Below, piece by piece: positions 7,146-55,121 of a DNA stretch of 64,000 nucleotides (the first letter of the stretch is position 1; each line of letters opens with the position of its first letter). Source of the DNA: Escherichia coli (lineage in GTDB: Bacteria > Pseudomonadota > Gammaproteobacteria > Enterobacterales > Enterobacteriaceae); assembly GCA_025544715.1 (NCBI GenBank), contig GCA_025544715.1_4109.2; one strand, given 5' to 3'. The position numbers and the translations under genes were made by a program. Below the pieces are notes generated by a model. That model saw nothing but the letters and a program-made list of their open reading frames with translations, made no database searches and had not been told where the DNA came from.

Positions 7146-8111
7146 TTAGAAATCTTCGTATTCGTACCCTTTTGCAAGTACTAGCTTCTTAAGCTTTTGC
7201 ATAGCTTCACTGTACTTTCGATGTATTGATGAACGGGATTTAACATATTTTCCATTATCATCAACAAAACCATTATCAGCAATCTCACGAAGCGTTTCAG
7301 GTTCATATTCACCTAGACCATGAACACGCTGGATAATCTCACGTTCTTTAGTACTCAATTCGTTAGTCAGTTCATTGATAGCATAACGTAAAGGTGCACG
7401 AATACTATCAACATTGAGGTTAAAATCAGAAGCAGGTGAATGAATAATGTCACCTAGTGTACCATCTGTAACACCGTCTAATGGTGCATCCAGTGAAGTG
7501 TATTCGCTTTGAAATAACAAACAATTATTAACATGCTGAATCTCAATCCCAGTACCCTCTGAGATTATTTCAGGAGTTGGGCGAACACCATGTTTACGCA
7601 TATATTCTTGGCAGAATCTTTTTACTTTGATCTTATGAACACTCATATAACGTGGGAAGTGTACCATATAGTTAGCGTCAGAACTTTCGTTATAAACTGT
7701 CATGTAAATACTAGAAGAAGCATAGGTAATGAACTTCACATTCTTATTAAGATCAAAGGTTTTTAGTGCTCTCATGAACCCCTCAACACCATATGAAATC
7801 TTATCTTCAAATGGGATATAACAAGTACATTTACTTGCTACATCAATAATAAGTCCATAATTGTAACGAACTAACAGTTCAGTGTTTTTCTTTACATTGA
7901 TACCAGCTTGAATATCACGAATTAGATCTTCATTGGTAACATTTTGTGGTCGCTTAAGTGTAATATTATATTTGAAACTGCTTTGTACTTTACCTTCATT
8001 TTCATCTTTATCTTCAACGAAATCTAAGGCTTCTAGTGTGTTGACTTCTTCATTAGCAAAACATTCATCCAGAACTTCTTCGGCAATTGTATTTAAATCA
8101 AGCTTTTTCAC
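7146..8111 (-). CDS. RNA polymerase sigma factor, sigma-70 family (321 aa)
   Basis: region 2-like GFMRALKTFDLNKNVKFITYASSSI and region 4-like LSTKEREIIQRVHGLGEYEPETLREIAD. Confidence 0.6.
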   Translation of the reverse strand: MKKLDLNTIAEEVLDECFANEEVNTLEALDFVEDKDENEGKVQSSFKYNITLKRPQNVTNEDLIRDIQAGINVKKNTELLVRYNYGLIIDVASKCTCYIPFEDKISYGVEGFMRALKTFDLNKNVKFITYASSSIYMTVYNESSDANYMVHFPRYMSVHKIKVKRFCQEYMRKHGVRPTPEIISEGTGIEIQHVNNCLLFQSEYTSLDAPLDGVTDGTLGDIIHSPASDFNLNVDSIRAPLRYAINELTNELSTKEREIIQRVHGLGEYEPETLREIADNGFVDDNGKYVKSRSSIHRKYSEAMQKLKKLVLAKGYEYEDF

Positions 8112-18389: not shown

Positions 18390-18580
18390 TATTCATCCTC
18401 GTACTTCTTGAATGGTGGAACATCTACCTTGAAGTCTTTGCACATCTTAGTTGTACGAACTTCAGTATTGTTGTGATAATTTTTCTTAAATTCATAAGAA
18501 ACATAATTACGAATACCAGGTGTATGAATAATAGCAAGAACCAATGTACGACCAAACAAGCATAATAAATTCCAGAACAT
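18389..18580 (-). CDS. hypothetical protein (63 aa)
   Basis: ORF track. Confidence 0.3.
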   Translation of the reverse strand: MFWNLLCLFGRTLVLAIIHTPGIRNYVSYEFKKNYHNNTEVRTTKMCKDFKVDVPPFKKYEDE

Positions 18581-18589
18581 ATGAATCTC

Positions 18590-18955
18590 CTAATTGTGGG
18601 TTTTAACTAAACGTGAGACAGCTAGTATAGCATTAACCTCATCCAATGTCAACCCACCAATGTCATTAATCATTGAGTACTGAAATAGTGATTCTTCAGT
18701 GTAATGGTAATCATGAGAAGCAATAAAGATTGCTGGTTTAGATGCATCCAAAATTATCTTTGTCATTGTACTATATATATCAAATTGATACAATAGATTT
18801 TCACTTGTATATGCTATGTAGATATTATTTGAATAGGCTGGATGTACCATTGTAAAACCATCATAACATAATATTTTTATGTTCGGATCGTCAAAATTGC
18901 CTGTATAAAGGTTATTACAAACATCTTGCATTATACGTACTATTAGACTAGTCAT
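18590..18955 (-). CDS. EE-x-FFQ-x-S motif paralogue family protein
   Basis: C-terminal YTEESLFQYSMINDIGGLTLDEVNAIL. Confidence 0.55.
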   Translation of the reverse strand: MTSLIVRIMQDVCNNLYTGNFDDPNIKILCYDGFTMVHPAYSNNIYIAYTSENLLYQFDIYSTMTKIILDASKPAIFIASHDYHYTEESLFQYSMINDIGGLTLDEVNAILAVSRLVKTHN

Positions 18956-19379
18956 TTAATGGATTTAGTACCTCTTCTGGAATCAACTTTTGAACTTTAA
19001 GTATAGCTTTAATGTCATCAAATGTCAATCCACGTAGGTCGTTTAGGAGGCAGTACTGGAAGAATTTTTCTTCAGTATTTATATCGTCAATATTCATTTG
19101 GATTGATTCGTTATCATCATCATAATCATAATCTTCATTATCACAATAATAACTTCTGAATATAACTCGTTCAAAATACACATCAAATGAATAAAAATGA
19201 TTATCGATTTCATATCCAAGAAAAATATTAAAACATGTATTTAAATCTGTTGTTTCATTTAAATTTGTGTCAAAACAAAAAACTCGCACTTCACCAATAT
19301 CATCTATATATTCATCTTTGAGTGACCATGTGTTGTTTTTTAATACATAGTTCACAAGTTCAACGATGTTGTATTTCAT
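18948..19379 (-). CDS. EE-x-FFQ-x-S motif paralogue family protein
   Basis: C-terminal NTEEKFFQYCLLNDLRGLTFDDIKAIL. Confidence 0.55.
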   Translation of the reverse strand: MKYNIVELVNYVLKNNTWSLKDEYIDDIGEVRVFCFDTNLNETTDLNTCFNIFLGYEIDNHFYSFDVYFERVIFRSYYCDNEDYDYDDDNESIQMNIDDINTEEKFFQYCLLNDLRGLTFDDIKAILKVQKLIPEEVLNPLND

Positions 19380-19391
19380 AGTGTACCTTTA

Positions 19392-19441
<50 letters not shown>

Positions 19442-19498
19442 TAATTGAGAAGTAAGATAACCAACAAGTCTCCATACTCTTTCGCATTGAGGGGAGGC

Positions 19499-19631
<133 letters not shown>

Positions 19632-19691
19632 ATTGGCCTCTTTATGTTAAAAACCCCAGTTTTCTTCTTGAACCATATTACACCTCATTCA

Positions 19692-19772
<81 letters not shown>

Positions 19773-19791
19773 GCATACTCGAAGTACCTCT

Positions 19792-19940
<149 letters not shown>

Positions 19941-19941
19941 G

Positions 19942-20415
<474 letters not shown>

Positions 20416-20427
20416 TTAAATACTCTC

Positions 20428-21107
<680 letters not shown>

Positions 21108-21113
21108 AACTTA

Positions 21114-21653
21114 TTAACGTTCATCATCATGAATCTCACGATGACAATTAGCACAAACCATAATACATTTATCTAGTTCTATTTTGATTTTTTCAAAAGA
21201 ACGAGTTGAACCTTCTTGACTAATTGAAAAATCTTTCTGTGAAGGGTCAATATGGTGAAATTCTAATGCCGCAATGCATTTATTATAACCACACTTTTCG
21301 CAGCAACCACCTTTGTATTCAACAGCTAATATTTTTAATTTTCTACGTCTATCCGAAACACGTTGACTGTCACATTTTGAGCATTTCCATTTACCTTGTG
21401 AATTTAAATCATAATTCTTATTGTGTATTTCACAAAATCTCATTTCATTCGTTGACTTTGGTCGTTTAACACCATGTGATTCAATAATGTTATTGATTCT
21501 TGATCTATTACACTTATATTCTTTGGCTAAACCGTAAATTGGCATACCATTTAAATACTTCTGAATTATTTCATTCTCTGGTAATTTAGAACTTTTCGCC
21601 TTTATTGCTTCGGCTATTTTGTTGCGTGTTTCTTCTGATTGTTTTCGTCCCAT
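21114..21653 (-). CDS. HNH homing endonuclease (179 aa)
   Basis: N-terminal GRKQSEETRNKIAEA (NUMOD-like) and C-terminal LEFHHIDPSQKD...CANCHREIH; adjacent to tRNA cluster. Confidence 0.6.
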   Translation of the reverse strand: MGRKQSEETRNKIAEAIKAKSSKLPENEIIQKYLNGMPIYGLAKEYKCNRSRINNIIESHGVKRPKSTNEMRFCEIHNKNYDLNSQGKWKCSKCDSQRVSDRRRKLKILAVEYKGGCCEKCGYNKCIAALEFHHIDPSQKDFSISQEGSTRSFEKIKIELDKCIMVCANCHREIHDDER

Positions 21654-21718
21654 GAACCTTAGACCTCATAATATCCATTATGATATTATTTATTGTTCCA
21701 AGGTTCATAGTTAATTTG

Positions 21719-21802
21719 CTGGTAGTACTGGAGTCGAACCAGTCTTGTCATTTCTGACACGGATTAACAGTCCGTTGCATAAGGCCGATATGCTAACTAC
21801 CA
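21719..21802 (-). tRNA. tRNA, anticodon GUU as read (Asn), but with a long class-II variable arm; identity uncertain
   Basis: hand fold: 7-bp acceptor, D-arm GCAT/ATGC, anticodon stem ACGGA/TCCGT with loop CTGTTAA, 15-nt variable arm, T-arm ACTGG-TTCGACT-CCAGT. Confidence 0.5.
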
Positions 21803-21814
21803 TTTGTTTTAAAT

Positions 21815-21894
<80 letters not shown>

Positions 21895-21897
21895 GTA

Positions 21898-22391
<494 letters not shown>

Positions 22392-22753
22392 ATCACCAAC
22401 TTTAATTAAAAAAATGGATGGTGACGCGTTTAAACGCCGCTGTTAATTCAGCTTTATAACCACCCGTTTTAACTTACCTTTCGGCTACCTTGACGTGGGG
22501 CGTACAGGCTACTAAAAGCAACTTCTGTAAACATATTTCCACGCCTTACCATTTTAAATAAAAGTCCATCCGGTTTTCCAGTTTGGTGAAGGACTGTCAC
22601 CTCTAGTTTCAACCTGCTAGTCAAGTAATAATTGCCTATCGTCCAATTATCAAACCCGTCTAGGTTAACATTCACCACTTCCTAGAGTACCAGAGATCTT
22701 GTTCTGGATAGCATCGACGTAACTTACACCATATACGTCTGATTGTGGAATTC
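22392..22753 (-). ncRNA. candidate promoter-driven structured RNA or long leader (~360 nt)
   Basis: ORF-free, visibly GC-richer stretch immediately downstream of a consensus promoter. Confidence 0.25.
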
Positions 22754-22778
22754 ATTATATCAGTACTGAACTATTTAG

Positions 22779-22782
<4 letters not shown>
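22754..22782 (-). promoter_or_regulatory. sigma70-consensus promoter (TTGACT-17-TATAAT), cassette copy 2
   Basis: near-identical to the cassette at 21995-22023. Confidence 0.55.
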
Positions 22783-23191
<409 letters not shown>

Positions 23192-23204
23192 GCTTTTTTT
23201 TTAA

Positions 23205-23365
<161 letters not shown>

Positions 23366-23369
<4 letters not shown>

Positions 23370-23526
23370 ATTCGTACCAGTAGTTCAATTAAGTACATTT
23401 CATATGCTGGATCGTTGATAAGTTTATCATACAGATGTGGCTCTGAAATGAATTCCCAATGATACTCTAACCACTTACCAAAACCTGCATATCTAAAATT
23501 AATGTCATTCATCCATTCTTCATGTG

Positions 23527-23530
<4 letters not shown>
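23366..23530 (-). CDS. MTHEEW small-protein family member (54 aa)
   Basis: hand translation MTHEEWMNDINFRYAGFGKWLEYHWEFISEPHLYDKLINDPAYEMYLIELLVRI. Confidence 0.45.
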
Positions 23531-23790
<260 letters not shown>

Positions 23791-23794
23791 TATT

Positions 23795-23910
<116 letters not shown>

Positions 23911-23927
23911 ATGTGATGTCCCATTAT

Positions 23928-24146
23928 TTATGCAAGTGCTTTAGATACACCGACACCAATAATTCCAGTGATAGCGATATGGATATTGACAAGTTGATTA
24001 CTATCATATGGGTTTGTTTCTGTAATAACCAATGTTGTATCATTGACTAAAACCACAGTGCCTTTTACACGATACCCATGTAGTAGTACTTGAACCTCAT
24101 CTTCAGGTTTTAATGATTGAATAACTTCAAATAAAGTTGTTTCCAT
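23928..24146 (-). CDS. hypothetical protein (72 aa)
   Basis: ORF track. Confidence 0.35.
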   Translation of the reverse strand: METTLFEVIQSLKPEDEVQVLLHGYRVKGTVVLVNDTTLVITETNPYDSNQLVNIHIAITGIIGVGVSKALA

Positions 24147-43798: not shown

Positions 43799-44560
43799 TT
43801 AATCCATTTTAAGCTTGTTTAGACAGAATGAAATCTGGATTGCTTCACGTGCTGCATCAAACAGTGGGTGATGTAACTCCAACCCATTAATCCCACACGT
43901 ATTTGCATATGTGATAAATTTATCCAACTGTACCGAAACGATTTCATCCATTTCAATACGAGCTTCTTCATTCAATAAACGTTTCAATGTGCGTGCATTT
44001 TCAGGTGCATCATACTTCCACAACTCACCAGCGTTCATTAGTTTTAAATGGTTTGCTTGTAAAATACTACAATCGAAGTTACATCCGTTGCCCCAGACTG
44101 AATGAGGAACTTCTTCACCATAATCATTGTAACGTAATTCTTTCCAGAAATCAACAATACTACTGTATGCAAAAAATCGTCGTGATTGACCATTCGGTCC
44201 ATACAGTTCAGGTGCTTTGAGTTTCATAGTACTGGAAACTTCACTATATGCATTAGGATATTCTTTCTGGCAGGTATTCATCCAAAAATCCATTGCACCT
44301 GCGTCTGATTTTAAACCAGCAGCAACTTGATCCTGGTATGGTAATTTAATATATAAGAACTGACGAATGTCATTTTCAGGTTTACTTGGAACTACTACTG
44401 CTGCGTAATTTGGGATAATAATATCATAACCTGAAAGTTCAGGTGTTCCAAGAGCTTCAATATCAACACTAATATGACGACGTTTCATAAGTTCGTTCCT
44501 TATCTGTACATTAAAAAGAGTGCGTTTCAATAATATTATTATATTAAAAAACGCACTCAT
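43799..44560 (-). CDS. 3-prime-to-5-prime exonuclease, DEDDh family (DexA-like) (253 aa)
   Basis: ISVDIEALGT (DxE motif) and LHHPLFDAAREA (H-x4-D motif). Confidence 0.5.
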   Translation of the reverse strand: MSAFFNIIILLKRTLFNVQIRNELMKRRHISVDIEALGTPELSGYDIIIPNYAAVVVPSKPENDIRQFLYIKLPYQDQVAAGLKSDAGAMDFWMNTCQKEYPNAYSEVSSTMKLKAPELYGPNGQSRRFFAYSSIVDFWKELRYNDYGEEVPHSVWGNGCNFDCSILQANHLKLMNAGELWKYDAPENARTLKRLLNEEARIEMDEIVSVQLDKFITYANTCGINGLELHHPLFDAAREAIQISFCLNKLKMD

Positions 44561-44570
44561 ATGTCAACTA

Positions 44571-45707
44571 TTACTTGTTAGCTTTTTCGGCAATTTCACG
44601 AAGAGTGTCTTCCAGTTCATAGGAAAGTTGTGCAATTTCCTGTTTAGCACGTTCACGTTCCAATTTACCTTTTTTCTCTTCCTCAATAACTGCTTCAATA
44701 CTGTCAATCATCGTTTTATGTACATTACGCAAGGTTTTAATATCCACAATACCACGGTTGTTTGCCTTTGCTGCATCCAACATATTTGCTGCAACCATTT
44801 TAGAGTTAGTTTCCAAAAGACGGTTTGTCTCGTTGTCAATAAGATTACCCAGTTCATTATCCTTACGTTGACGCTCGGAAATCAACTGTTCAGCCAATTG
44901 AGACTTCCATGCTGGAATAACAACGGATTTTAAATCTTCAAACTTAGAAACAGTGTTCAAGTTTACTTTTTTCATACTCATCAAGCGTGGACCACTTAGT
45001 TCGCACATCATGATAAGACGACGAATCTTATCTTCTTGTTTAGAAAGTGCTTCACAAATCATCTTTTGCTCTTGAATAGCAAAAGAGTCTACATTTTTGT
45101 CTGCTTGCATTTCTACTAGTAATGCATCTTGTGTTTTAGTTACTTCTTCTAAACCAACTAATGTATCACGTAATTCAAACAAATATTCTTTGTTTTCATT
45201 ATATGCTTTATCAAGCCATTCACATTCTCCGTGCTGGCGATTAATACCAGTTTGAAGAGTTTTCATAATTTCATCAATTTGCTCTTTACTGTTTTTGTAC
45301 TGATCACCGACTTTCTGTTGAGCATTAACAAAGAATTTCTTAATACGACCAACAATTGATTTATCTTCTTGAAGACTGTCAATATCAACTGCACGAGTCA
45401 ACGTAAGAATTGTGGTGATTGATTTACCAAACTCGGTATTGTCATCTGTTACATTAACTTTAGACATAATTTCATCAGCCAGACGCCCAACAGCAGCACC
45501 AGCAGTTGTACCAACAGTATTGATGTTTTGAACTGTTAGAGACATAGTATTTCCCTTAACATCTTTCAGTACTGGTAGTGATTTTGTAGTTTGGTTAAAA
45601 ATATCACTTGCATCAATTGTATGACCTTTAGTCGCAGTTTTAGTAGTACGTTTTGCTGATTTAGCTGCGGTGGATGCTTTTTTAGGATTGATTTCTTTCT
45701 CGGACAT
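44571..45707 (-). CDS. coiled-coil protein, possibly TelA-like (378 aa)
   Basis: size and charged helical composition recall TelA family; unverified. Confidence 0.45.
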   Translation of the reverse strand: MSEKEINPKKASTAAKSAKRTTKTATKGHTIDASDIFNQTTKSLPVLKDVKGNTMSLTVQNINTVGTTAGAAVGRLADEIMSKVNVTDDNTEFGKSITTILTLTRAVDIDSLQEDKSIVGRIKKFFVNAQQKVGDQYKNSKEQIDEIMKTLQTGINRQHGECEWLDKAYNENKEYLFELRDTLVGLEEVTKTQDALLVEMQADKNVDSFAIQEQKMICEALSKQEDKIRRLIMMCELSGPRLMSMKKVNLNTVSKFEDLKSVVIPAWKSQLAEQLISERQRKDNELGNLIDNETNRLLETNSKMVAANMLDAAKANNRGIVDIKTLRNVHKTMIDSIEAVIEEEKKGKLERERAKQEIAQLSYELEDTLREIAEKANK

Positions 45708-45755: not shown

Positions 45756-45784
45756 ATTATACGGGCAGCACGTATGATAGTCAA
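45756..45784 (-). promoter_or_regulatory. sigma70-consensus promoter (TTGACT-17-TATAAT)
   Basis: minus-strand reading upstream of 44571-45707. Confidence 0.55.
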
Positions 45785-46923: not shown

Positions 46924-47019
46924 TATAAAACCTCATAATCAATTAAAATTTACGCGATGGTGATATTGTACATACTTCGACTACACATGTCAACACCTGA
47001 AAAGAAAAAAGGACGCACC

Positions 47020-47838
47020 TTAGTGCATCCTTTTGTTACTTTTATCCTTGTACCATACAAATGTCTTGACAGGTGGATATTTTTCATTCTTTGGTGGTTC
47101 AGGCATGTCGTATACAGTTGCATTTCTAAACTTAAGAATGTATGTGTCCATCAAACGGATTATACAATAGTTTAAACATTTTTGTGCTCTTTCTTTCCAA
47201 AAATGTTTATATGGTTCTGGACAACCAAGATAATCAAGTTTATACATACTCATTGCAACTTGCATAAATCTTTGGGCCGAGAATTTACGCTTGTCGATTT
47301 TACTTGCCCTATGTTGATCACAGGTCCAGCTTGATACTCCAGGTAAATGACAAAACAAATCAAAACTAACCATACTATCAAAGTATTTGTTATGACCATG
47401 TAACTCACCATAAAATACTGCTTCAGATACTGTATCATATAATGAGAAATTTGAATGTATATGCTCATTATCAAAAATACTTTTTAAATCTTTATAAGTT
47501 TCTGGAACTGGTGGTTCAGGTAATACTTCACCAAATACTTCAACACACCATATCTTCCATAAACCTTTTGTAAATTTATTTTCTAAATCTCTATCACTAT
47601 CTATATAAAAAGTTTTTTCATTTATGAAAACTTTTCTTGCCATGTATGCTTTAAAAATTGCATCTGGATCAATGTCTTCACGATTTACATCATCCCAGCC
47701 TTTACCAATTCTTGAAATTTCAAATCTACGCATATACATGCGACATGCTAAATCTTTAGTAAGGCTGCGACGATACTTTTCATCCTGATGTAATTTGGTT
47801 GTTTCATGAAGAGATTTAAGCATATTTAAAATTCTCAT
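47020..47838 (-). CDS. hypothetical protein (272 aa)
   Basis: ORF track. Confidence 0.5.
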   Translation of the reverse strand: MRILNMLKSLHETTKLHQDEKYRRSLTKDLACRMYMRRFEISRIGKGWDDVNREDIDPDAIFKAYMARKVFINEKTFYIDSDRDLENKFTKGLWKIWCVEVFGEVLPEPPVPETYKDLKSIFDNEHIHSNFSLYDTVSEAVFYGELHGHNKYFDSMVSFDLFCHLPGVSSWTCDQHRASKIDKRKFSAQRFMQVAMSMYKLDYLGCPEPYKHFWKERAQKCLNYCIIRLMDTYILKFRNATVYDMPEPPKNEKYPPVKTFVWYKDKSNKRMH

Positions 47839-48515
47839 CGCAACACCAAATACTTCCCGTTTCTTCCAATTACATATTGATCACCACTTCGTAGTACTGT
47901 ATAGCTTTCCCCTAGTATGGAACTAAGACGCGAAGTGTCTAATTGTGTATCATTCTTTAATAACTTTTTCACATATGTTTCTGAAACAAAACCGCTTCCA
48001 GTACTGTAGTGTAATTTACCATATGCTGTTTTTAATGTCAACATGTTTCCTTCTTTGATTACTGAAACACCAGCATAATCAAGGAACTCACTAATTGAAC
48101 TAGGAATGCCCAAATCAATTCTCTGCTGTATTTCTTCAAAATCAACATCGATTGGGTCATTAACACCATATAGTTGTATTTTCCAACCTGGGTCTGGACA
48201 AATATTTTCAATAGTTTTAATTAAACGTAAAAGTTTTTCAGGGAATTCGGCATTTCGTTCCATTTCCACATAAACTTGATATCGACCATCTAAATTTGGT
48301 GTTTCTGCTGCTTCTGTATCAACTACATCAATAGGTGATTTTTCAATAAAAGAAGATAAATCATATGCTGCATCAAAATTGTTAAGAACCTGAAACATAA
48401 TAACAATATTACTATCTTCAATTTTAGGAGTATATTCATCAACACTAATTATAGGATGAATCAAATCTTTGAGAACTTGCGGACGTAAGCCTTGTTCATT
48501 TAATTTCTTTTTCAT
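47835..48515 (-). CDS. hypothetical protein (226 aa)
   Basis: ORF track; size and position compatible with a divergent sliding clamp, sequence not recognisable. Confidence 0.5.
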   Translation of the reverse strand: MKKKLNEQGLRPQVLKDLIHPIISVDEYTPKIEDSNIVIMFQVLNNFDAAYDLSSFIEKSPIDVVDTEAAETPNLDGRYQVYVEMERNAEFPEKLLRLIKTIENICPDPGWKIQLYGVNDPIDVDFEEIQQRIDLGIPSSISEFLDYAGVSVIKEGNMLTLKTAYGKLHYSTGSGFVSETYVKKLLKNDTQLDTSRLSSILGESYTVLRSGDQYVIGRNGKYLVLR

Positions 48516-49078
48516 TACATTCCACCTTCTTGTGTCTCATCCGTTACTTCCACATCCAAATCTACATCATCACCAGTTACAGGTTCTTCAAAATTTTCTG
48601 GTGAATTCATTGGATTACTATTGAATTCTGCTGCCATTAGTTTATATTCATCAAAACTTTCTGGATTAATTAAGTTTCGTGGAATCTGCACTCTAACCAA
48701 TAGTACTGGGATTCTTTCATTTTTTGGTATACGTACCGACCCTGATTGTGTAGCAACACTTTTCATATCAGCTTGTCGATTAGGATCTTTGATAGGAGTT
48801 ATTTCATAATCAGCTTTAACATACACTTTAGTACCATGCTTCTCCAAAATAGAGAATGCTGTAGGATCAGGGAAATTTTCACGATAGTATTTGAATGTTA
48901 CAGTACACCAATACTTACTTACAATTGGTCCCTCTACCAACTCACCCTCAATAATTCCTTTATACGCATACAAATCATTATCATCGAAATATTTTTCTAC
49001 AGCAAGAAGTATATCTAACATACCACTGTTATCATACAACTGCTGAATAGCATTATCTGTATAATCTAAATCGTCCAT
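48515..49078 (-). CDS. hypothetical acidic protein (187 aa)
   Basis: ORF track; position downstream of clamp loader. Confidence 0.5.
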   Translation of the reverse strand: MDDLDYTDNAIQQLYDNSGMLDILLAVEKYFDDNDLYAYKGIIEGELVEGPIVSKYWCTVTFKYYRENFPDPTAFSILEKHGTKVYVKADYEITPIKDPNRQADMKSVATQSGSVRIPKNERIPVLLVRVQIPRNLINPESFDEYKLMAAEFNSNPMNSPENFEEPVTGDDVDLDVEVTDETQEGGM

Positions 49079-49176
49079 ATTTTATATTATCCTTAAAAAC
49101 TAGCACATATAATACTATTTACTACTTTTAAAAAACAACAAAAGGGGTTTGAATCAAACCCCCCAATTTAAAAGTT

Positions 49177-49821
49177 TTATTTGTAATATTTACCTAGTAC
49201 TGAATAAATTTTCAATCTAAGATCTGTCCAATTCTCAATGTATTCAAAATTACCAGTGTTCTTATACATTGAATTATGAGAACATCCCATCATAACTGAC
49301 GGAATACCAAGTCCCATTGCAGTTTCAATATTATTGATATAATCATCAATCATAAGTTTTACATCATATCTAGACTGTAAATCCTCTAGTGCTTGTTTCT
49401 TTGATTCGTTCATTTCGATAATAATAATCTCATCAAAACAGTTTTCACCAAATTCACGCATTAGGTTTACATTACGTAAAACTTCTCCATAACCTTTTTT
49501 GCCACATTTTGTTAGTACTACAAATTTTTCTTTATGAAAACGATCACGTAGCTCTTGTACAATATCAACTGTATTAGGTTCGACTGGTTTTAACAACCCA
49601 AACAAATATGATTGTTGGTTGAATTGTTCAAGAATTTTTTTAACTTCTTGTTGGGGGACACCCAACCAATCGGATAAATCATATTCTAATGGGTATGGTG
49701 TTGATGGTGTGATATTATAAGTTTGTTTTACGAACTCAGAAAGCATACCCATATGGTCCAATAGAACTTCATCACAATCAAAAACTATACAACGTGGTTT
49801 CATTACATGTTCCCCGAACAA
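49177..49821 (-). CDS. HAD-superfamily hydrolase, possible nucleotidase (214 aa)
   Basis: motif I CIVFDCDEVL and C-terminal LMIDDY. Confidence 0.45.
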   Translation of the reverse strand: MFGEHVMKPRCIVFDCDEVLLDHMGMLSEFVKQTYNITPSTPYPLEYDLSDWLGVPQQEVKKILEQFNQQSYLFGLLKPVEPNTVDIVQELRDRFHKEKFVVLTKCGKKGYGEVLRNVNLMREFGENCFDEIIIIEMNESKKQALEDLQSRYDVKLMIDDYINNIETAMGLGIPSVMMGCSHNSMYKNTGNFEYIENWTDLRLKIYSVLGKYYK

Positions 49822-50792
49822 ATTAGGTCAATCTCGCACAGAAGTGCACTGAGATTCATTTCACGGTCAGATACAGTTGCTTGTTTTACAACAGCATCAC
49901 GAATCTTAACCTTGATTTTCATAAGAGTAATTTCATCAGTACTGAACATTTCAGCATTACGATACAGATAAGAAAAGAATGCATCCATCTCATCATCAGG
50001 GATATTTTGTACAATTTGTTCACGCATTTGGCGAATGTTTCCTGCCTTTAATGCTTCAACAATTGCAGTACGATACCCTGCTGAATTTTCAATACTATCT
50101 TCAAGTTTTACTAGCTTACCATCAACAACTGAACTTTGCAATACGTTTAGTGTTTTACGGAAATCAGGATAGGAAGCATTGATATACTTTTGAACTTGTT
50201 CAACACTATCATCACTACTCAAATCAACACCTTCTGCTAGAAGAATATTATAAATTCGAGTCATGAATTGTTCCATATCATGCTTTTCAATTGTAATAAC
50301 TTGAACACGAGAAATGATAGGTTTTTGAATTTTATGTGGTTCGTTACTTGTTAAAATAAAGCGAGCGTTTTCATGGTAGTCTTCCATTACACGTTTCAAA
50401 CTACCTTGTGCTTTATGGTTCATCTGCTCCATTTCTTCAAGAACAAAGATACGATACCTACCAAAACATGATAACTTTGCTGCGGCATCGATTTTATCAC
50501 GAACTGCATCAATACCCTCATCTGACATGTTAAGTGTAGTTACATCACTTGGGTCAAGGTGTCCATTCTGTACCAATCCATTAATGAGAACTTTGATCGC
50601 AGATGTTTTACCAGTTCCTGCTGGGCCAAAAAACCCAATATGTGGAATGTCACCAGTTTTAATCCATTCTTCCATTTTCTGGCGTAGTGCATCATTTTTT
50701 GATACATAATCTTCCATTGATTGTGGGCGATATTTTTCAGTCCATAGTGTGGTCATTTTTATTTCCTTATGTGTACGTGTTATAGAATCCAA
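49803..50792 (-). CDS. clamp loader ATPase subunit, T4 gp44-like (329 aa)
   Basis: LWTEKYRP, Walker A GPAGTGKTS, Walker B-like IFVLEEME, ISRVQVI. Confidence 0.8.
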   Translation of the reverse strand: MDSITRTHKEIKMTTLWTEKYRPQSMEDYVSKNDALRQKMEEWIKTGDIPHIGFFGPAGTGKTSAIKVLINGLVQNGHLDPSDVTTLNMSDEGIDAVRDKIDAAAKLSCFGRYRIFVLEEMEQMNHKAQGSLKRVMEDYHENARFILTSNEPHKIQKPIISRVQVITIEKHDMEQFMTRIYNILLAEGVDLSSDDSVEQVQKYINASYPDFRKTLNVLQSSVVDGKLVKLEDSIENSAGYRTAIVEALKAGNIRQMREQIVQNIPDDEMDAFFSYLYRNAEMFSTDEITLMKIKVKIRDAVVKQATVSDREMNLSALLCEIDLICSGNM

Positions 50793-51052
50793 TCGGCTGA
50801 ATTATATAATAAAGCCGTGAAAAGTTCTTCTGTCATTTCCAATTGATTTAATAAAAAATTAAAAGAATTTGCCTTATTTTTAATCCCAGTACTTTCAGCT
50901 TGGGCCGATGCAACTAATAAAACTTTAAACATATCATGTGAAACTTCATATACATATTTTGTATTTTTTCTATCTTCAAACATGAATCTTCCGTTTTTTG
51001 ATACTAATGTTACATCTTTGAAACTAAATTTTCCATCATCCGTTATCATCAA
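50780..51052 (-). CDS. hypothetical protein (90 aa)
   Basis: ORF track. Confidence 0.35.
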   Translation of the reverse strand: MMITDDGKFSFKDVTLVSKNGRFMFEDRKNTKYVYEVSHDMFKVLLVASAQAESTGIKNKANSFNFLLNQLEMTEELFTALLYNSADWIL

Positions 51053-51105
51053 AATGTGTCCAAATAAAAAGCCCAGATATTAATCCGAGCTTTAATTATA
51101 TTTTA

Positions 51106-51432
51106 TCAACGTCCAAAGGTTAGCATTTTAGTGCGTGGGTCTTCATCAGATACTAAACTAACAGCGGCAGGGTAATCAACTAGGTTTAGTTCAATACCAT
51201 CAACCTCAATCGTTCTTGACCAACGACCATGATCAATTAAAATCCATTGACCTTCTTTAATATCAGTAATGTCTTCGCCTACTGAATATACTTTAGCCCA
51301 GCGAGAACGAATACCTCTAATTTTACCGTCATCGTTTGTTAAAACGATTCCACCTGCTGTTTTGCGTTCACCATGTTCCAGTTCAGTGACTAGTACTTTA
51401 CCTTTACATGCAGTCATTACTTTATTAGACAT
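51106..51432 (-). CDS. co-chaperonin GroES-like (Cpn10; functional analogue of T4 gp31) (108 aa)
   Basis: GKVLVTELEHGERKTAGGIVLT matches GroES mobile-loop region. Confidence 0.6.
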   Translation of the reverse strand: MSNKVMTACKGKVLVTELEHGERKTAGGIVLTNDDGKIRGIRSRWAKVYSVGEDITDIKEGQWILIDHGRWSRTIEVDGIELNLVDYPAAVSLVSDEDPRTKMLTFGR

Positions 51433-51440
51433 TTAATACA

Positions 51441-51785
51441 TTACTCCTGATCTTTAGTTTTTGCTCGACGTGGGGCTTTCTTCTCTTCAGAAACCTCAGC
51501 TTCTTGTGATTCGGGCTTAACTTCAAAACTTTCATCATCCCATACTTCCTCAGAACTATGTTCAGTACTATGAAGTTGGTGTTCAGGGATATAATCAGGA
51601 ATTTGCATTTCTCTTTCTTTTTCTTGTATCAACTCTTCACGAGTTTTGATAATTGTTCCACCTGAACCAATTTTATCACCACGTGCGTTTAGATTAGCAT
51701 TACCCAATGCTACCTGATGTTGATTTTGGTACTTGAGCATATCCATGTCAATTGTTGTACCACGATAAGTTGTATGTTTAGACAT
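51441..51785 (-). CDS. hypothetical protein (114 aa)
   Basis: ORF track. Confidence 0.4.
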   Translation of the reverse strand: MSKHTTYRGTTIDMDMLKYQNQHQVALGNANLNARGDKIGSGGTIIKTREELIQEKEREMQIPDYIPEHQLHSTEHSSEEVWDDESFEVKPESQEAEVSEEKKAPRRAKTKDQE

Positions 51786-51848
51786 ATCAAAATCCTTTTA
51801 TTGTATGTGTGATATAAGCCTACAATAAACATTATATCACATGTTTTG

Positions 51849-52391
51849 CTACCATTTCAAAAATTCATTAACATCGAGTTCGTATTTCAATGAATCTACC
51901 ATGTGTAGACCAATCAAAAACAAACAGTATGATGCAACCGAGCTTCCACGCCCTAGACCCCAAAAGATCTCATTTTCTTCCATATAATCAACAAGCCATA
52001 TCATACATCTTAATAGCTTTGTCATATTATAATATTCATATAAATCTAGTTCATACTCAACACGCTTTCGTGCTTCATCTGATGTACATTTTTGTAAGAA
52101 AAAGTCACGTAGATTTATATTGTCGTATACTGGATCATAACGCCAAAGTTCATGATTTTTATCATGCTCGATAGTATAATCCAGCATACGTTGTTCTAAG
52201 CCAAATTTTTTACAGTTATCATTGAATTTCAACCTTTCAGGTTCATCAATTTCCTGCAATTGTAAGTACTGGATATCCGCACCGCAATTGATTGCATAAA
52301 CTACTGCGTTAAGATTACATTTTACATCACCATTGGGACTTATAAATCTGTTTCCTTGTACTTTCATTTTTCTTTTTCTGGGCCTCTTCAT
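51849..52391 (-). CDS. hypothetical protein (180 aa)
   Basis: ORF track. Confidence 0.45.
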   Translation of the reverse strand: MKRPRKRKMKVQGNRFISPNGDVKCNLNAVVYAINCGADIQYLQLQEIDEPERLKFNDNCKKFGLEQRMLDYTIEHDKNHELWRYDPVYDNINLRDFFLQKCTSDEARKRVEYELDLYEYYNMTKLLRCMIWLVDYMEENEIFWGLGRGSSVASYCLFLIGLHMVDSLKYELDVNEFLKW

Positions 52392-52639: not shown

Positions 52640-55060
52640 TTAACCTCCTATGTTATTGTTTTGCAATGTAATCACAAATGTATCTGGTACATAATTTACT
52701 GATTCATGTGAAAAGTACCCGAATTCGACAGATGTGATTTCAAACTCTAGACCTACCATTGTACCATGTTCATTATTCTGAAGTAAAGTGTTGAAAAATG
52801 CTTCACCTTTACCTGGCTGACAAAATGCGACTGGGATAATAGGCATGAATTTTTTCTGTATACCATCTTCAATGTATGGGTGATTCATAAATCTTGGAAC
52901 GGTATCAAGCATTTCATCGCTGATACTTGGTATAGCATCAACGTATAGACCACGATTTTGTAAATCAGTTGGATCTTTTACCAAGTTTGTTGTGTCTTCA
53001 CCAATAGCTTGAAAGATATTTTGACGTAGACCAAACAGTTCACCAAGCTGACCATTATCTATTTGAGTATACATACGAGGATTTTTGGATACAGATACTA
53101 AAGAACCTTCAGGTAAAACTTCTCTATATAATAAATCATATTGCAAATTGCCTTGATTGTCAAGTGCTGATATCAATTTATAATTACCCATTACCATTTT
53201 AAATTTTCCATTTGGTATAGTAGAGCCATTTGGATTAATGATACTATTTCGTAATACTTTTTTGATATCCGAAAGATTAGTATATGGGTACGTTTGACTT
53301 AGAAAGTTTTCTTTCAATAACATCCTAGGAACTTTCTGAAGACCATACCTATTATCAGATTGACGGAAAAAAAGTTGATTAGTAAATGATGAAGTACTGA
53401 TACATTTAAACCACTCTCGCTCAAATGCAACAGACGGTAGTACATGTGCACTCAAATAATTCTGACCGAACCCTCTTACAATCTTAAGGTTAAATATTTT
53501 CCTTGCTTCGCCACCTTCAGTACTAAATGCTTTAACATAAAACGATAGTTTAATGTCATCGTTTTCACTAAAGTCAATACTTTTGGCATATGCAGTTCCA
53601 ACAAGATATCCGTCAGGTGTCAAATCTATTCCATACTTCCTAATATCATCACCACCATCTAAAACATACGAAACCTGATTTGAACTATCAGTTTCTATTC
53701 TAGGATAGGTACTGTCTCCAAAATATTCACCAACATGTATAGTTCCTAAATCACTATCAGTAACAAAGTTTATATTATTACCTTCTTCAGCGTTAATCAA
53801 AACCCTGAACATTTTCTGCATACCAATGATATTATCACCAAGAGTAGAGTCATAATATCCCAAATCAATCCAATCACTACTATCATAAACTGGTTTAATT
53901 GACCCATTGTCGTACTCACCACTAATCACATAGGGATATACAACGTTATCTTTTAATTGATATAAATGATTCGGTAGTGGTTTGTCTGCTATAGAATATA
54001 TAGTGTCAATATCTTCAGGACAAACCCACATTTGATATGCCTTATATCTTTGATTGATAGCAAACCTTTCGCTTTCTTCTGTGTATGTACTTAATATATC
54101 AACAATTTCAACTTTGAAATATGCATCACACGCATCTGAATCATATAAAAATGTTTGTAGTAATTGTCCATTAGGGTTAAAAACCATACCTGAATCAATT
54201 AAATTACCATTTCTATTTTGAATATTAACTTTTACTTCTTTGTTTATGCCAGAAATAGGCCATGTTGGTTGTGCTGGTTTAAATACGGCATAATCATTAG
54301 TAATATGTTTATCTGGAACTTCAGATATATCCATGTCAATCAAACGATATGCAGGAAAGAATACACGAGGGGTAATATCGGTAGTCATGTCAGTACCGAG
54401 TATAAAAGGTCTTCTTCTCCCAAACCCTTGAACAAACAATGTACTGTTCGAACCATACTCAACATCACCAATACAATAAAGTTTTTTGTCATCACCAATC
54501 TCAACTCCAGGTGTAACCCAAACTTCCTGACTATCATATGTTATTGAAGTATCTGTTAATCCTAAAACTCCACTTGGTGAAATATTCCCAAAATACATAA
54601 CATTTACTGCTTGTAAATAAAAATTTATATTTTCAGTATTATTATATGTTCCGTCATTTTTACAATGAATTTTTATAAAATAAACATCTTCAGTATTAGT
54701 ACTTGAGGATAAGTTAAATTCTGTTTTGCTAATCTTACACTTATGCTTACCATTTACTAGTTTATTTCCAGTTGTTCCATCTGAAATAGGAATAAAACTA
54801 TTTTCGTCATTACCAACATAAAAAGTATAATGTGGTTCTGGATCAAATACAGCACCTGAACTATCCAAGCATTGTATATTAAGAATCATCTCTAAGTATT
54901 CATCTTCGTTTAATACATAGCTATCATCCGTTGTGCTTTCTTTATTGATACTCAAACGCACAAGAATGTCTTGTCCTTCTTGTATATATCGAGCATCGGC
55001 TTTTATATCCCAACGTGGGGTAAAAGTTGTCATTATAATTCTCCATAGCCAAGCTGCCAT
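52640..55060 (-). CDS. large hypothetical protein, possibly structural (806 aa)
   Basis: long uninterrupted ORF rich in N, G, T, Y, D. Confidence 0.6.
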   Translation of the reverse strand: MAAWLWRIIMTTFTPRWDIKADARYIQEGQDILVRLSINKESTTDDSYVLNEDEYLEMILNIQCLDSSGAVFDPEPHYTFYVGNDENSFIPISDGTTGNKLVNGKHKCKISKTEFNLSSSTNTEDVYFIKIHCKNDGTYNNTENINFYLQAVNVMYFGNISPSGVLGLTDTSITYDSQEVWVTPGVEIGDDKKLYCIGDVEYGSNSTLFVQGFGRRRPFILGTDMTTDITPRVFFPAYRLIDMDISEVPDKHITNDYAVFKPAQPTWPISGINKEVKVNIQNRNGNLIDSGMVFNPNGQLLQTFLYDSDACDAYFKVEIVDILSTYTEESERFAINQRYKAYQMWVCPEDIDTIYSIADKPLPNHLYQLKDNVVYPYVISGEYDNGSIKPVYDSSDWIDLGYYDSTLGDNIIGMQKMFRVLINAEEGNNINFVTDSDLGTIHVGEYFGDSTYPRIETDSSNQVSYVLDGGDDIRKYGIDLTPDGYLVGTAYAKSIDFSENDDIKLSFYVKAFSTEGGEARKIFNLKIVRGFGQNYLSAHVLPSVAFEREWFKCISTSSFTNQLFFRQSDNRYGLQKVPRMLLKENFLSQTYPYTNLSDIKKVLRNSIINPNGSTIPNGKFKMVMGNYKLISALDNQGNLQYDLLYREVLPEGSLVSVSKNPRMYTQIDNGQLGELFGLRQNIFQAIGEDTTNLVKDPTDLQNRGLYVDAIPSISDEMLDTVPRFMNHPYIEDGIQKKFMPIIPVAFCQPGKGEAFFNTLLQNNEHGTMVGLEFEITSVEFGYFSHESVNYVPDTFVITLQNNNIGG

Positions 55061-55121
55061 TATCTATAGATTATTTATATAAAGGACAAGGAAGACCCAG
55101 TAAGGTCTTCCATAAAATATA

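What the first reader, a model, noticed from the sequence alone, without database searches (positions are those of the whole stretch)
47835..49821. Clamp loader without recognisable partners; candidate divergent small subunit and sliding clamp
The gp44-like gene is followed by a HAD hydrolase, then 187-aa and 226-aa ORFs whose sizes match T4 gp62 (187 aa) and gp45 (228 aa), but I cannot recognise their sequences. They may be highly diverged clamp-loader small subunit and clamp, or the partners are encoded elsewhere.
Basis: inference. Interest (0 to 1): 0.35.

Follow-up and report, generated by a model that had tools for sequence, protein, structure and literature searches.

The report
Virion protein pair, not clamp parts
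The two small genes next to the clamp-loader gene of this 121Q-like giant coliphage are not a hidden sliding clamp and loader subunit but an already catalogued pair of virion-associated proteins that work as one unit; the likelier clamp lies next to the DNA polymerase gene, outside this window.

Summary
On the minus strand lie a gp44-like clamp loader, a HAD/NT5C phosphatase, then 187-aa and 226-aa ORFs. The window is ~99% identical to Escherichia phage 121Q. A confident AlphaFold model of the 226-aa protein (pLDDT 89.5) and the core of the 187-aa model match no clamp or clamp-loader structure. Pfam, PDB-profile and HH comparisons are negative, while T4 controls are strongly positive. The pair is separated from the clamp-loader/HAD unit by an intrinsic terminator and has its own conserved late-promoter-like motif. 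In four divergent metagenomic phages the two proteins are fused into one polypeptide. Orthologues were found by mass spectrometry in purified virions of phAPEC6 (both proteins) and of CBB, PA5oct and JP4 (the 187-aa protein). PHROGs and the 121Q record already call both "virion structural protein". No gp45/gp62-like ORF exists in the window or in the 121Q genome at sequence level. A better clamp candidate is 121Q gp613 (243 aa), beside the PolB gene and annotated as a sliding clamp in two recent GenBank records. Its fold was not tested here. The finding is ordinary and largely already known.

The parts
47835..48515 (-). 226-aa ORF, orthologue of 121Q gp63 and phAPEC6 gp149c. Acidic (pI 4.86) two-domain alpha/beta protein annotated as a virion structural protein.
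   Evidence: ORF. phrog_13138 at E 2.5e-121. 100% identical to 121Q gp63 'structural protein'. AF2 pLDDT 89.5, pTM 0.85. No clamp among Foldseek hits. phAPEC6 gp149c found in virion MS with 4 peptides and 29.2% coverage. Family has 697 clusters.
48515..49078 (-). 187-aa ORF, orthologue of 121Q gp62 and phAPEC6 gp150c. Very acidic (pI 4.25), with an alpha/beta core at about residues 20-140 and a disordered acidic C-terminal tail. Its stop overlaps the start of the 226-aa ORF (TAATG).
   Evidence: ORF, sequence. phrog_12928 at E 2.4e-89. AF2 core confident, tail disordered. Virion MS: phAPEC6 gp150c 5 peptides/34.8%, CBB_334 7 peptides/40%, PA5oct gp189 'ESI-MS/MS' note, JP4_415 1 peptide/7%. 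Fused to the 226-like domain in P0355, P0389, P0427 and P0432.
49142..49164 (-). Intrinsic terminator-like hairpin (10-bp stem GGGGGGTTTG/CAAACCCCTT plus T-run) directly after the HAD gene. It insulates the clamp-loader/HAD unit from the 187/226 pair.
   Evidence: CBB also shows a GGGGAGTAATCCCCTTTT hairpin at the same place.
49104..49123 (-). Conserved promoter-like motif GTAGTAAATAGTATTATATG about 40 nt upstream of the 187-aa start codon. It resembles the T4 late promoter TATAAATA and the late motif proposed for CBB. Coordinates approximate; the 5' G is at 49125.
   Evidence: Window. RaK2 has GTAGTAAATAGTATATATG and CBB has TTAGTAAATAAGATTATAT. TAAATA also lies upstream of virion genes at 55077 and 63576, whereas sigma70-like promoters precede the replication-type genes. 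Function is inferred, not shown.
47020..47838 (-). 272-aa basic ORF (121Q gp64, phrog_15954, function unknown). Its start overlaps the 226-aa stop (ATGA). It is the third gene of the same unit.
   Evidence: No Pfam, PDB or gp45 similarity. Not in the phAPEC6 or JP4 virion lists.
47007..47034 (-). Terminator-like hairpin (12 pairs) closing the 187-226-272 unit.
49177..49803 (-). HAD-superfamily NT5C-type 5'-nucleotidase (121Q gp61). It is translationally coupled to the clamp loader (ATGA overlap) and occupies the position that gene 62 holds in T4.
   Evidence: Pfam NT5C E 2.9e-7, above cut-off. phrog_420. Conserved after the clamp loader in RaK2, CBB and locus L011.
49803..50756 (-). gp44-like AAA+ clamp-loader large subunit (121Q gp60), with Walker A GPAGTGKTS and an SRV arginine-finger motif.
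   Evidence: 29% identity to T4 gp44, E 2e-26. It is the only T4 gp44/45/62 relative in the whole 121Q genome.
50780..51052 (-). Conserved 90-aa ORF (121Q gp59, phrog_16539) immediately upstream of the clamp loader in the same unit. Function unknown.
   Evidence: No similarity to gp62.
51831..51860 (-). Near-consensus sigma70-type promoter (TTGAAA-18-TATAAT with a TG extension) upstream of gp57, likely feeding the GroES-like / 90-aa / clamp-loader / HAD genes.
   Evidence: Read-through of the terminator at 51068..51093 is inferred.

Best explanation
The 187-aa and 226-aa ORFs are the orthologues of 121Q gp62 and gp63, members of phrog_12928 and phrog_13138. They form a conserved two-gene module of the RaK2/121Q/PA5oct/Atu_ph07 clade of jumbo phages. 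They are not clamp-loader or clamp subunits. The two genes are translationally coupled (TAATG overlap). They are transcribed as their own unit, 187-226-272, which starts after a strong intrinsic terminator that ends the clamp-loader/HAD unit and is preceded by a conserved late-promoter-like motif. I infer that the two acidic proteins act as a stable 1:1 complex, because some relatives encode them as a single polypeptide. In those fusions the acidic disordered tail of the 187-aa protein becomes the linker. I also infer that the complex is incorporated into, or packaged with, the virion, because it is recovered from purified particles. Their position near the clamp loader reflects a conserved backbone gene order of the clade, not a functional link. 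Shown here: gene structure, conservation, terminator, fusions, non-clamp predicted fold, and the published virion mass spectrometry. Inferred: late timing, heterodimer formation, and true structural rather than co-purifying status. Unknown: location in the particle and molecular role. Confidence is split: about 0.93 that they are not gp45/gp62 equivalents, and about 0.7 that they are a true virion-associated complex.
For: Identity: the window is 99% identical to 121Q, whose record names both genes 'structural protein'. PHROG hits are full-length at E 2e-89 and 2.5e-121. Virion proteomes: phAPEC6 has both proteins. The 187-aa homologue is in CBB (7 peptides, 40% coverage), PA5oct and JP4. Not a clamp: the AF2 model of the 226-aa protein (pLDDT 89.5) has a beta-beta-alpha-beta-beta-alpha-beta N-domain and an alpha/beta C-domain. 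Foldseek against PDB gives no hit at E<=1e-3 and no clamp in the top 50. BFVD returns only the protein's own family. The 187-aa core also has no match. There are no Pfam or PDB-profile hits, while T4 gp45 and gp62 give E 1e-34 to 1e-77 in the same Pfam scan. HH probabilities are 0.2-0.5%. One unit: four fusion proteins, only 33-39% identical to each other, carry 187-like and 226-like domains in gene order. One of them lies on a 338-kb TARA phage contig with the same backbone synteny. Separate transcription: terminator at 49164..49142, and the motif is conserved in three genera. Variable linkage to the loader: 0.6 kb in 121Q but 3-8 kb with unrelated genes in PA5oct, Atu_ph07 and the TARA contig.
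Against: Virion detection is not proof of a structural role. The phAPEC6 list also contains SSB, RecA, a topoisomerase subunit, thymidylate synthase and gp215c, the candidate clamp itself, at similar coverage. The 226-aa protein has direct MS support only in phAPEC6, plus the 121Q label. It is absent from the JP4 list, and CBB labels it by homology. The original RaK2 record calls both genes hypothetical, and their names are absent from the held RaK2 supplements. The genes sit in a replication/nucleotide-metabolism block, not in the main structural module. Late timing rests only on a motif. No multimer prediction or localisation was possible. The fold exclusion rests on a predicted structure, not a solved one. 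Sequence-profile comparisons are uninformative at this distance, because even the two halves of true gp45 score only 3% against each other.
Confidence: 0.72

Rival explanations
1. One reading: the 187-aa ORF is a highly diverged gp62-like clamp-loader small subunit and the 226-aa ORF is a diverged gp45-like sliding clamp.
For: The sizes equal T4 gp62 (187 aa) and nearly equal gp45 (228 aa). The genes are close to the gp44-like gene, and loose synteny with the loader persists across the clade. The clade lacks recognised gp45 and gp62. The 226-aa protein is acidic like gp45. A 22-column motif (AAYDLSSF versus AIYDLNGF) gives a noise-level HH hit of 9.9%.
Against: A confident non-clamp predicted fold. 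The 187-aa core is alpha/beta, not a helical collar. All profile tests are negative while the controls are positive. The two are fused into one polypeptide in four lineages, which does not fit a loader subunit that must release its clamp. A terminator and a separate promoter-like motif separate them from the loader unit. The slot that gene 62 holds in T4 is taken by a HAD enzyme. The 187-aa protein has pI 4.25 against 8.7 for gp62. The 187-aa homologue was recovered in all four virion proteomes examined. A better clamp candidate exists beside PolB.
Confidence: 0.03
2. The pair is a non-structural, DNA- or replisome-associated accessory complex with a new fold, for example one working with the neighbouring split Pol III alpha, topoisomerase or clamp loader. 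It appears in virion preparations only because it is carried along with packaged DNA or co-purifies, as SSB, RecA and the candidate clamp do.
For: Replication proteins, including gp215c (the gp613 orthologue), appear in the phAPEC6 virion list at similar coverage. The pair lies in a conserved block with topo II, the Pol III alpha fragment, GroES-like, the clamp loader and HAD. In PA5oct, Atu_ph07 and the TARA contig it lies next to a PhoH gene, and PhoH-like proteins are repeatedly found in these virion lists.
Against: The cleaner CBB proteome lacks SSB, RecA, topoisomerase and the clamp candidate CBB_265, yet contains CBB_334 at 40% coverage. JP4 also has the 187-aa protein but not the clamp candidate. 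The upstream motif resembles late promoters rather than the sigma70-type promoters of neighbouring replication genes. Both proteins are strongly acidic with no recognisable DNA-binding domain.
Confidence: 0.2
3. The ORFs are chance or degenerate open reading frames without function.
For: None beyond the lack of Pfam annotation.
Against: Conserved from 100% down to about 30% identity in ~87 phage records and 697 metagenomic clusters. Peptides were observed. AF2 gives a confident fold.
Confidence: 0

Closest known systems
121Q gp62/gp63 = phAPEC6 gp150c/gp149c = CBB_334/335 = PA5oct gp189/gp188 (phrog_12928 and phrog_13138, 'virion structural protein')
   Same: Same proteins: 99.5-100% identity to 121Q, full-length PHROG matches, same adjacent gene order, and virion MS support.
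   Different: Nothing differs.
T4 gp45 sliding clamp (Pfam PF02916 and PF09116)
   Same: Similar length (226 vs 228 aa) and acidic pI (4.86 vs 4.89). Encoded in a phage that has a gp44-like loader and a gp43-like polymerase.
   Different: No Pfam, PDB or HH similarity. The predicted fold is not the four-fold beta-alpha-beta-beta-beta clamp fold. It is found fused to its neighbour, sits in a separate late-like unit, and is found in virions.
T4 gp62 clamp-loader A subunit (Pfam PF16790)
   Same: Identical length (187 aa).
   Different: No similarity (HH probability 0.5%). Alpha/beta core with an acidic tail rather than a helical collar protein. pI 4.25 vs 8.67. Not translationally coupled to the loader, since a HAD gene holds that position.
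121Q gp613 / fEgEco12 g359 'sliding clamp protein' / Phosso CDS 221 'DNA polymerase III sliding clamp beta' (phrog_12062)
   Same: This is the likelier partner of the window's clamp loader. It is 243 aa, conserved in 75 phage records, and always lies one or two small ORFs downstream of the gp43-like polymerase.
   Different: It lies outside the window (121Q 344995-345726). Its clamp identity rests on other groups' annotations and on synteny. My own tests were negative or sub-threshold: HH vs gp45 gave 4-19% probability, with no Pfam or PDB hit.

Membership tests
T4 gp45-type sliding clamp | Match to Pfam DNA_PPF (PF02916) and gp45-slide_C (PF09116) | tested here: not met
   The 226-aa ORF has 0 Pfam families at E<=0.1. 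The T4 gp45 control scores E 9e-34 and 2e-51. A gp45-family HMM scanned against all window ORFs gives a best E of 0.48, against 5e-100 for the control.
T4 gp45-type sliding clamp | Profile-profile similarity to the gp45 family | tested here: not met
   A1 vs T4 gp45 gives probability 0.2%. A1 vs the 31-sequence gp45 alignment gives 0.4%. Caveat: the method is weak at this distance, since gp45 N-half vs C-half scores only 3.3%.
T4 gp45-type sliding clamp | DNA-clamp fold: two domains, each a duplicated beta-alpha-beta-beta-beta unit | tested here: not met
   AF2 model with pLDDT 89.5 and pTM 0.85. The N-domain is beta-beta-alpha-beta-beta-alpha-beta (Rpb11/S6-like; TM about 0.5, E about 0.03). 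No clamp appears in the top 50 PDB hits and none reaches E<=1e-3. The only clamp-labelled BFVD hit is noise (rank 34, E 0.14, TM 0.12).
T4 gp45-type sliding clamp | Closed homotrimeric ring that encircles DNA and binds the polymerase C-terminal tail | not testable with these tools
T4 gp62 clamp-loader A subunit | Match to Pfam Phage_clamp_A (PF16790) or HH similarity | tested here: not met
   The 187-aa ORF has 0 Pfam families. The T4 gp62 control scores E 3.5e-77. A2 vs gp62 gives probability 0.5%. phmmer finds nothing in the window or in the whole 121Q genome.
T4 gp62 clamp-loader A subunit | Gene translationally coupled to, and co-transcribed with, the gp44 gene | tested here: not met
   A HAD gene occupies that position, and a terminator at 49164..49142 separates the 187-aa gene from it.
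T4 gp62 clamp-loader A subunit | Mainly helical protein that completes the pentameric collar with four gp44 subunits | tested here: inconclusive
   The predicted core is a beta-sheet with flanking helices plus a disordered acidic tail, which is unlike a helical collar subunit. No complex model could be made.
phrog_13138 / phrog_12928 (RaK2-like 'virion structural protein' pair) | Full-length HMM match | tested here: met
   E 2.5e-121 over 1-226 of a 227-position profile, and E 2.4e-89 over 3-187 of a 186-position profile.
phrog_13138 / phrog_12928 (RaK2-like 'virion structural protein' pair) | Detected in purified virions | tested here: met
   From the literature, on orthologues. phAPEC6 Table 1 lists both. 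CBB Table 4 lists the 187-aa homologue. The PA5oct record carries an MS note for the 187-aa homologue. The JP4 dataset lists the 187-aa homologue weakly. Nothing was tested on this exact phage.
gp44/RFC-type AAA+ clamp loader (the neighbouring 317-aa protein) | AAA+ domain with Walker A/B and arginine finger, a lid domain, and similarity to T4 gp44 | tested here: met
   Pfam AAA, DNA_pol3_delta2 and a weak Gp44_lid hit, plus phrog_168 at E 1e-78. BLASTP to T4 gp44 gives 29% identity at E 2e-26, with GPAGTGKT and SRV/SRC aligned.

The most novel reading that the evidence does not exclude
The 187/226 pair, fused in some lineages, is a new-fold heterodimeric component that travels inside the capsid with the genome. 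It could be part of the so far unassigned inner body seen in 121Q and phAPEC6 bubblegrams, or an ejected protein acting on incoming DNA together with the co-packaged PhoH-like or replication proteins. On this reading it is not an ordinary shell or tail protein.
Probability: 0.15. Interest if true: 0.5.

Novelty: already known. Interest (0 to 1): 0.15.

Why it matters
This mainly removes a false lead. The two ORFs should stay annotated as a virion-associated pair and should not be re-labelled as replication proteins. Three modest points add to what was known. First, the two families are one functional unit, shown by Rosetta-stone fusions, and are widespread in large environmental phages. Second, published jumbo-phage "structural proteomes" contain replication proteins, including the likely clamp, so "virion structural protein" labels propagated through PHROGs need caution. 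Third, the long-noted missing clamp of RaK2-like phages probably sits next to the polymerase gene (the gp613 family), while the small loader subunit remains unidentified.

Tried and rejected
- Looked for clamp or gp62 similarity in the neighbouring unannotated ORFs: the 90-aa, 272-aa and 375-aa ORFs, plus ten other window ORFs of 183-364 aa. Methods were Pfam, small-alignment PDB profile searches and HH. Nothing was found.
- Scanned all 247 window segments and all 757 segments of the whole 121Q genome with a gp45-family HMM and with T4 gp45 and gp62. Only gp60 (the gp44 homologue) was found.
- Read the entire 121Q RefSeq annotation for clamp or processivity terms. There are none.
- Ran Pfam on ten unannotated replication-module ORFs of 121Q (gp3, gp13, gp14, gp18, gp24, gp26 and others). 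Nothing was found.
- Tried to support gp613 as a clamp by Pfam, PDB profile and HH. Results were negative or unstable: 19% probability with 5 sequences, 4% with 6.
- The N-half versus C-half duplication test proved uninformative, because the true gp45 control also fails it.
- Counting the motifs TATAAATA and AGTAAATA as a late-promoter statistic gave too few copies to be informative. The TAAATA enrichment in intergenic DNA is partly due to sigma70 -35 contexts.
- PA5oct and Iyer et al. supplements are not held. The RaK2 supplements do not mention ORF168 or ORF169.
- Pfam on ten long or fused family members gave no partner domains.
Full report
**What is there.**
The window is a 64-kb stretch of an Asteriusvirus jumbo coliphage. 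The region examined (47000-51500) is 99.0% identical to Escherichia phage 121Q and about 95-97% identical to phAPEC6, PBECO4, JP4 and others. On the minus strand the order is as follows:
- a GroES-like gene (51106..51432);
- a 90-aa ORF (50780..51052);
- the gp44-like clamp loader (49803..50756 from the ATG that has a good RBS; the mechanical ORF extends to a TTG at 50792);
- a HAD/NT5C phosphatase (49177..49803, overlapping the loader stop);
- the 187-aa ORF (48515..49078);
- the 226-aa ORF (47835..48515);
- a 272-aa ORF (47020..47838).

T4 gp62 and gp45 are indeed 187 and 228 aa.

**What the two ORFs are called elsewhere.**
They are 99.5% and 100% identical to 121Q gp62 and gp63. The depositors labelled both "structural protein". 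Both match PHROG families annotated "virion structural protein" over their full length, at E 2.4e-89 and 2.5e-121. The published virion proteomes show the following:
- phAPEC6 lists gp150c (5 unique peptides, 34.8% coverage) and gp149c (4 peptides, 29.2%).
- CBB lists CBB_334, the 187-aa homologue (7 peptides, 40%).
- The PA5oct record marks its 187-aa homologue "ESI-MS/MS".
- The JP4 dataset contains the 187-aa orthologue weakly (1 peptide, 7%) but not the 226-aa protein.

**Test of the clamp and small-subunit idea.**
I built alignments of 44 and 43 homologues and predicted both structures.
- The 226-aa model is confident (pLDDT 89.5, pTM 0.85). It has an N-terminal beta-beta-alpha-beta-beta-alpha-beta sandwich and a C-terminal alpha/beta domain.
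- The 187-aa model has a confident alpha/beta core (about residues 20-140) and a disordered acidic tail.
- Foldseek against the PDB gave no hit at E<=1e-3 for either model and no clamp, PCNA, gp45, gp62 or AAA+ chain in the top 50. The best local resemblance of the 226-aa N-domain is to Rpb11/RpoL/S6-type sandwiches (TM about 0.5, E about 0.03).
- BFVD returned only the protein's own family. The one clamp-labelled entry is noise (rank 34, E 0.14, TM 0.12).
- Pfam and PDB-profile searches are empty. The same Pfam scan finds T4 gp45 and gp62 at E 1e-34 to 1e-77, and the window's loader aligns to T4 gp44 at E 2e-26.
- HH probabilities are 0.2% (226-aa family vs gp45), 0.4% (vs a 31-member gp45 alignment) and 0.5% (187-aa family vs gp62).

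I note that profile-profile comparison is not decisive at this distance. The two halves of genuine gp45 score only 3.3% against each other, and a 22-column motif gives the 226-aa N-half a 9.9% hit to gp45. The fold result carries the weight.

**Independent lines that point the same way.**
1. *Transcription units.* A 10-bp-stem GC-rich hairpin with a T-run lies directly after the HAD gene (49164..49142), and another closes the 272-aa gene (47034..47007). So the 90-aa, loader and HAD genes form one unit, and the 187, 226 and 272-aa genes form another.
   - About 40 nt upstream of the 187-aa start is the motif GTAGTAAATAGTATTATATG. It is conserved in RaK2 and CBB even though the surrounding spacer differs.
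   - TAAATA-type elements also precede virion-protein genes at 55077 and 63576.
   - Topo II, gp57 (feeding the loader unit), gp65 and TelA have near-consensus sigma70 promoters instead.
   - This suggests late expression but does not prove it.
2. *Fusions.* A profile search of 1.84 billion representatives found 697 clusters of the 226-aa family.
   - Four of the 150 best (P0355, P0389, P0427, P0432) carry a 187-like domain at the N-terminus (E 1e-28 to 1e-38), then an acidic linker, then the 226-like domain (E 1e-31 to 1e-35).
   - They are only 33-39% identical to one another.
   - One lies on a 338-kb TARA contig with the same backbone synteny.
   - The two proteins therefore act as one unit. 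That makes no sense for a loader subunit and the clamp it must release.
3. *Linkage.* The pair is 0.6 kb from the loader in 121Q. It is separated from it by three to ten unrelated genes, including an opposite-strand PhoH gene, in PA5oct, Atu_ph07 and the TARA phage. The proximity reflects conserved backbone order.
4. *Chemistry.* The 187-aa protein has pI 4.25, against 8.67 for gp62.

**A caveat on "structural".**
The phAPEC6 virion list also contains SSB, RecA, a topoisomerase subunit and thymidylate synthase. As I found, it also contains gp215c, the orthologue of the candidate clamp, at 26% coverage. So that list alone cannot separate structural from DNA-associated proteins. The CBB list is cleaner: it has no SSB, RecA or topoisomerase, and it lacks CBB_265 (the clamp candidate), yet it contains CBB_334. 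JP4 likewise has the 187-aa protein but not the clamp candidate. I therefore favour true virion association (about 0.7) over carry-over (about 0.2). Location and role remain unknown.

**Where the real partners may be.**
The absence of gp45 and gp62 homologues in this clade is a published observation, and recent papers still list only "a clamp loader". I found no gp45/gp62-like ORF in the window or in the whole 121Q genome, whether by reading all annotated features or by HMM scan.

One gene stands out. 121Q gp613 is 243 aa and lies two small ORFs downstream of the gp43-like polymerase.
- It is conserved in 75 phage records.
- The polymerase / small ORF / gp613 order holds in fEgEco12, RaK2, CBB and the distant Sinorhizobium phage Phosso.
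- Two independent records annotate it as a sliding clamp.

It is therefore a lead, not a result. No candidate for the small subunit emerged.

**Verdict.**
The ORFs are an already annotated virion-associated pair, so novelty is low. The fusions, the size of the family and the contamination caveat for jumbo-phage virion proteomes are minor additions.

Noticed in passing
window 51849..52391 (-): A 180-aa 'DNA polymerase III alpha' fragment (121Q gp56). It corresponds to one half of the split, minimal Pol III alpha that Iyer et al. 2021 describe for group 2.2 jumbo phages. The other half appears to be 121Q gp16 (212 aa, weak DNA_pol3_finger hit), outside the window. The fragment keeps its place upstream of the GroES-like gene and clamp loader in Atu_ph07, the TARA contig and locus L011.
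   Followed up: partly
outside window: 121Q NC_025447 344995-345726 (L018:46995-47726): gp613 (243 aa, phrog_12062 'unknown function') is the best candidate for the missing sliding clamp. It lies beside PolB in four genera and is annotated as a clamp in fEgEco12 and Phosso. Its phAPEC6 orthologue gp215c is listed in the 'structural proteome'.
   Followed up: partly
phAPEC6 Table 1 (PMC7247149); 121Q gp6: Published virion proteomes of these phages include SSB, RecA, a topoisomerase subunit, thymidylate synthase, PhoH and the clamp candidate. 121Q even labels its SSB 'structural protein'. 'Virion structural protein' labels propagated into PHROGs and RefSeq may therefore include DNA-bound passengers.
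   Followed up: partly
window 50780..51052 (-): A conserved 90-aa ORF (phrog_16539) lies 23 nt upstream of the clamp loader in the same transcription unit and is present in RaK2 and CBB. Its function is unknown. In PA5oct, Atu_ph07 and the TARA contig a 104-120-aa ORF follows the loader instead. Either could be an unrecognised loader accessory.
   Followed up: partly
window 51106..51432 (-) and 121Q gp615: There are two GroES/Cpn10-like genes. One lies two genes upstream of the clamp loader (in the window). The other lies two genes downstream of the clamp candidate gp613 (outside the window). The pairing of a co-chaperonin gene with each replication-accessory gene is conserved in RaK2 and CBB and is unexplained.
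   Followed up: no
window-wide; 55072..55079 (-): The T4 late-promoter octamer TATAAATA is strongly under-represented: 2 copies against 12.1 expected. One copy sits 12 nt upstream of the 806-aa virion-protein gene (52640..55060). The window also encodes an 'RNA polymerase sigma factor' (7146..8111, 121Q gp167), distinct from the late sigma factor gp591 encoded elsewhere in the genome.
   Followed up: partly
window 44538..44567, 45756..45784, 46965..46993, 51831..51860 (-): Near-perfect sigma70 promoters (11-12 of 12 matches) precede the exoribonuclease-like gene, TelA, the 375-aa ORF and gp57. This indicates host-RNAP-driven transcription of this block.
   Followed up: no
window 49177..49803 (-): An NT5C-type HAD 5'-nucleotidase with an intact DxDxV motif is translationally coupled to the clamp loader (ATGA overlap). 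It keeps this position in RaK2, CBB and metagenomic locus L011, occupying the slot that gene 62 holds in T4.
   Followed up: partly
window 43799..45707 (-): A TelA-like toxic-anion-resistance protein (PF05816, E 2e-37) is followed by an Rv2179c-like 3'-5' exoribonuclease domain protein. The original 121Q record annotates the latter as 'metallopeptidase', and RefSeq as an exoribonuclease.
   Followed up: no
window ~18500..24000 (-): A tRNA cluster (Gly, Ser, Leu, Ser, Met, Asn, Thr in the 121Q annotation) is interspersed with very small ORFs. Several repeats of CTTGACTAAATA(A/G)TT promoter-like sequences lie at 22018, 22777 and 23186.
   Followed up: no
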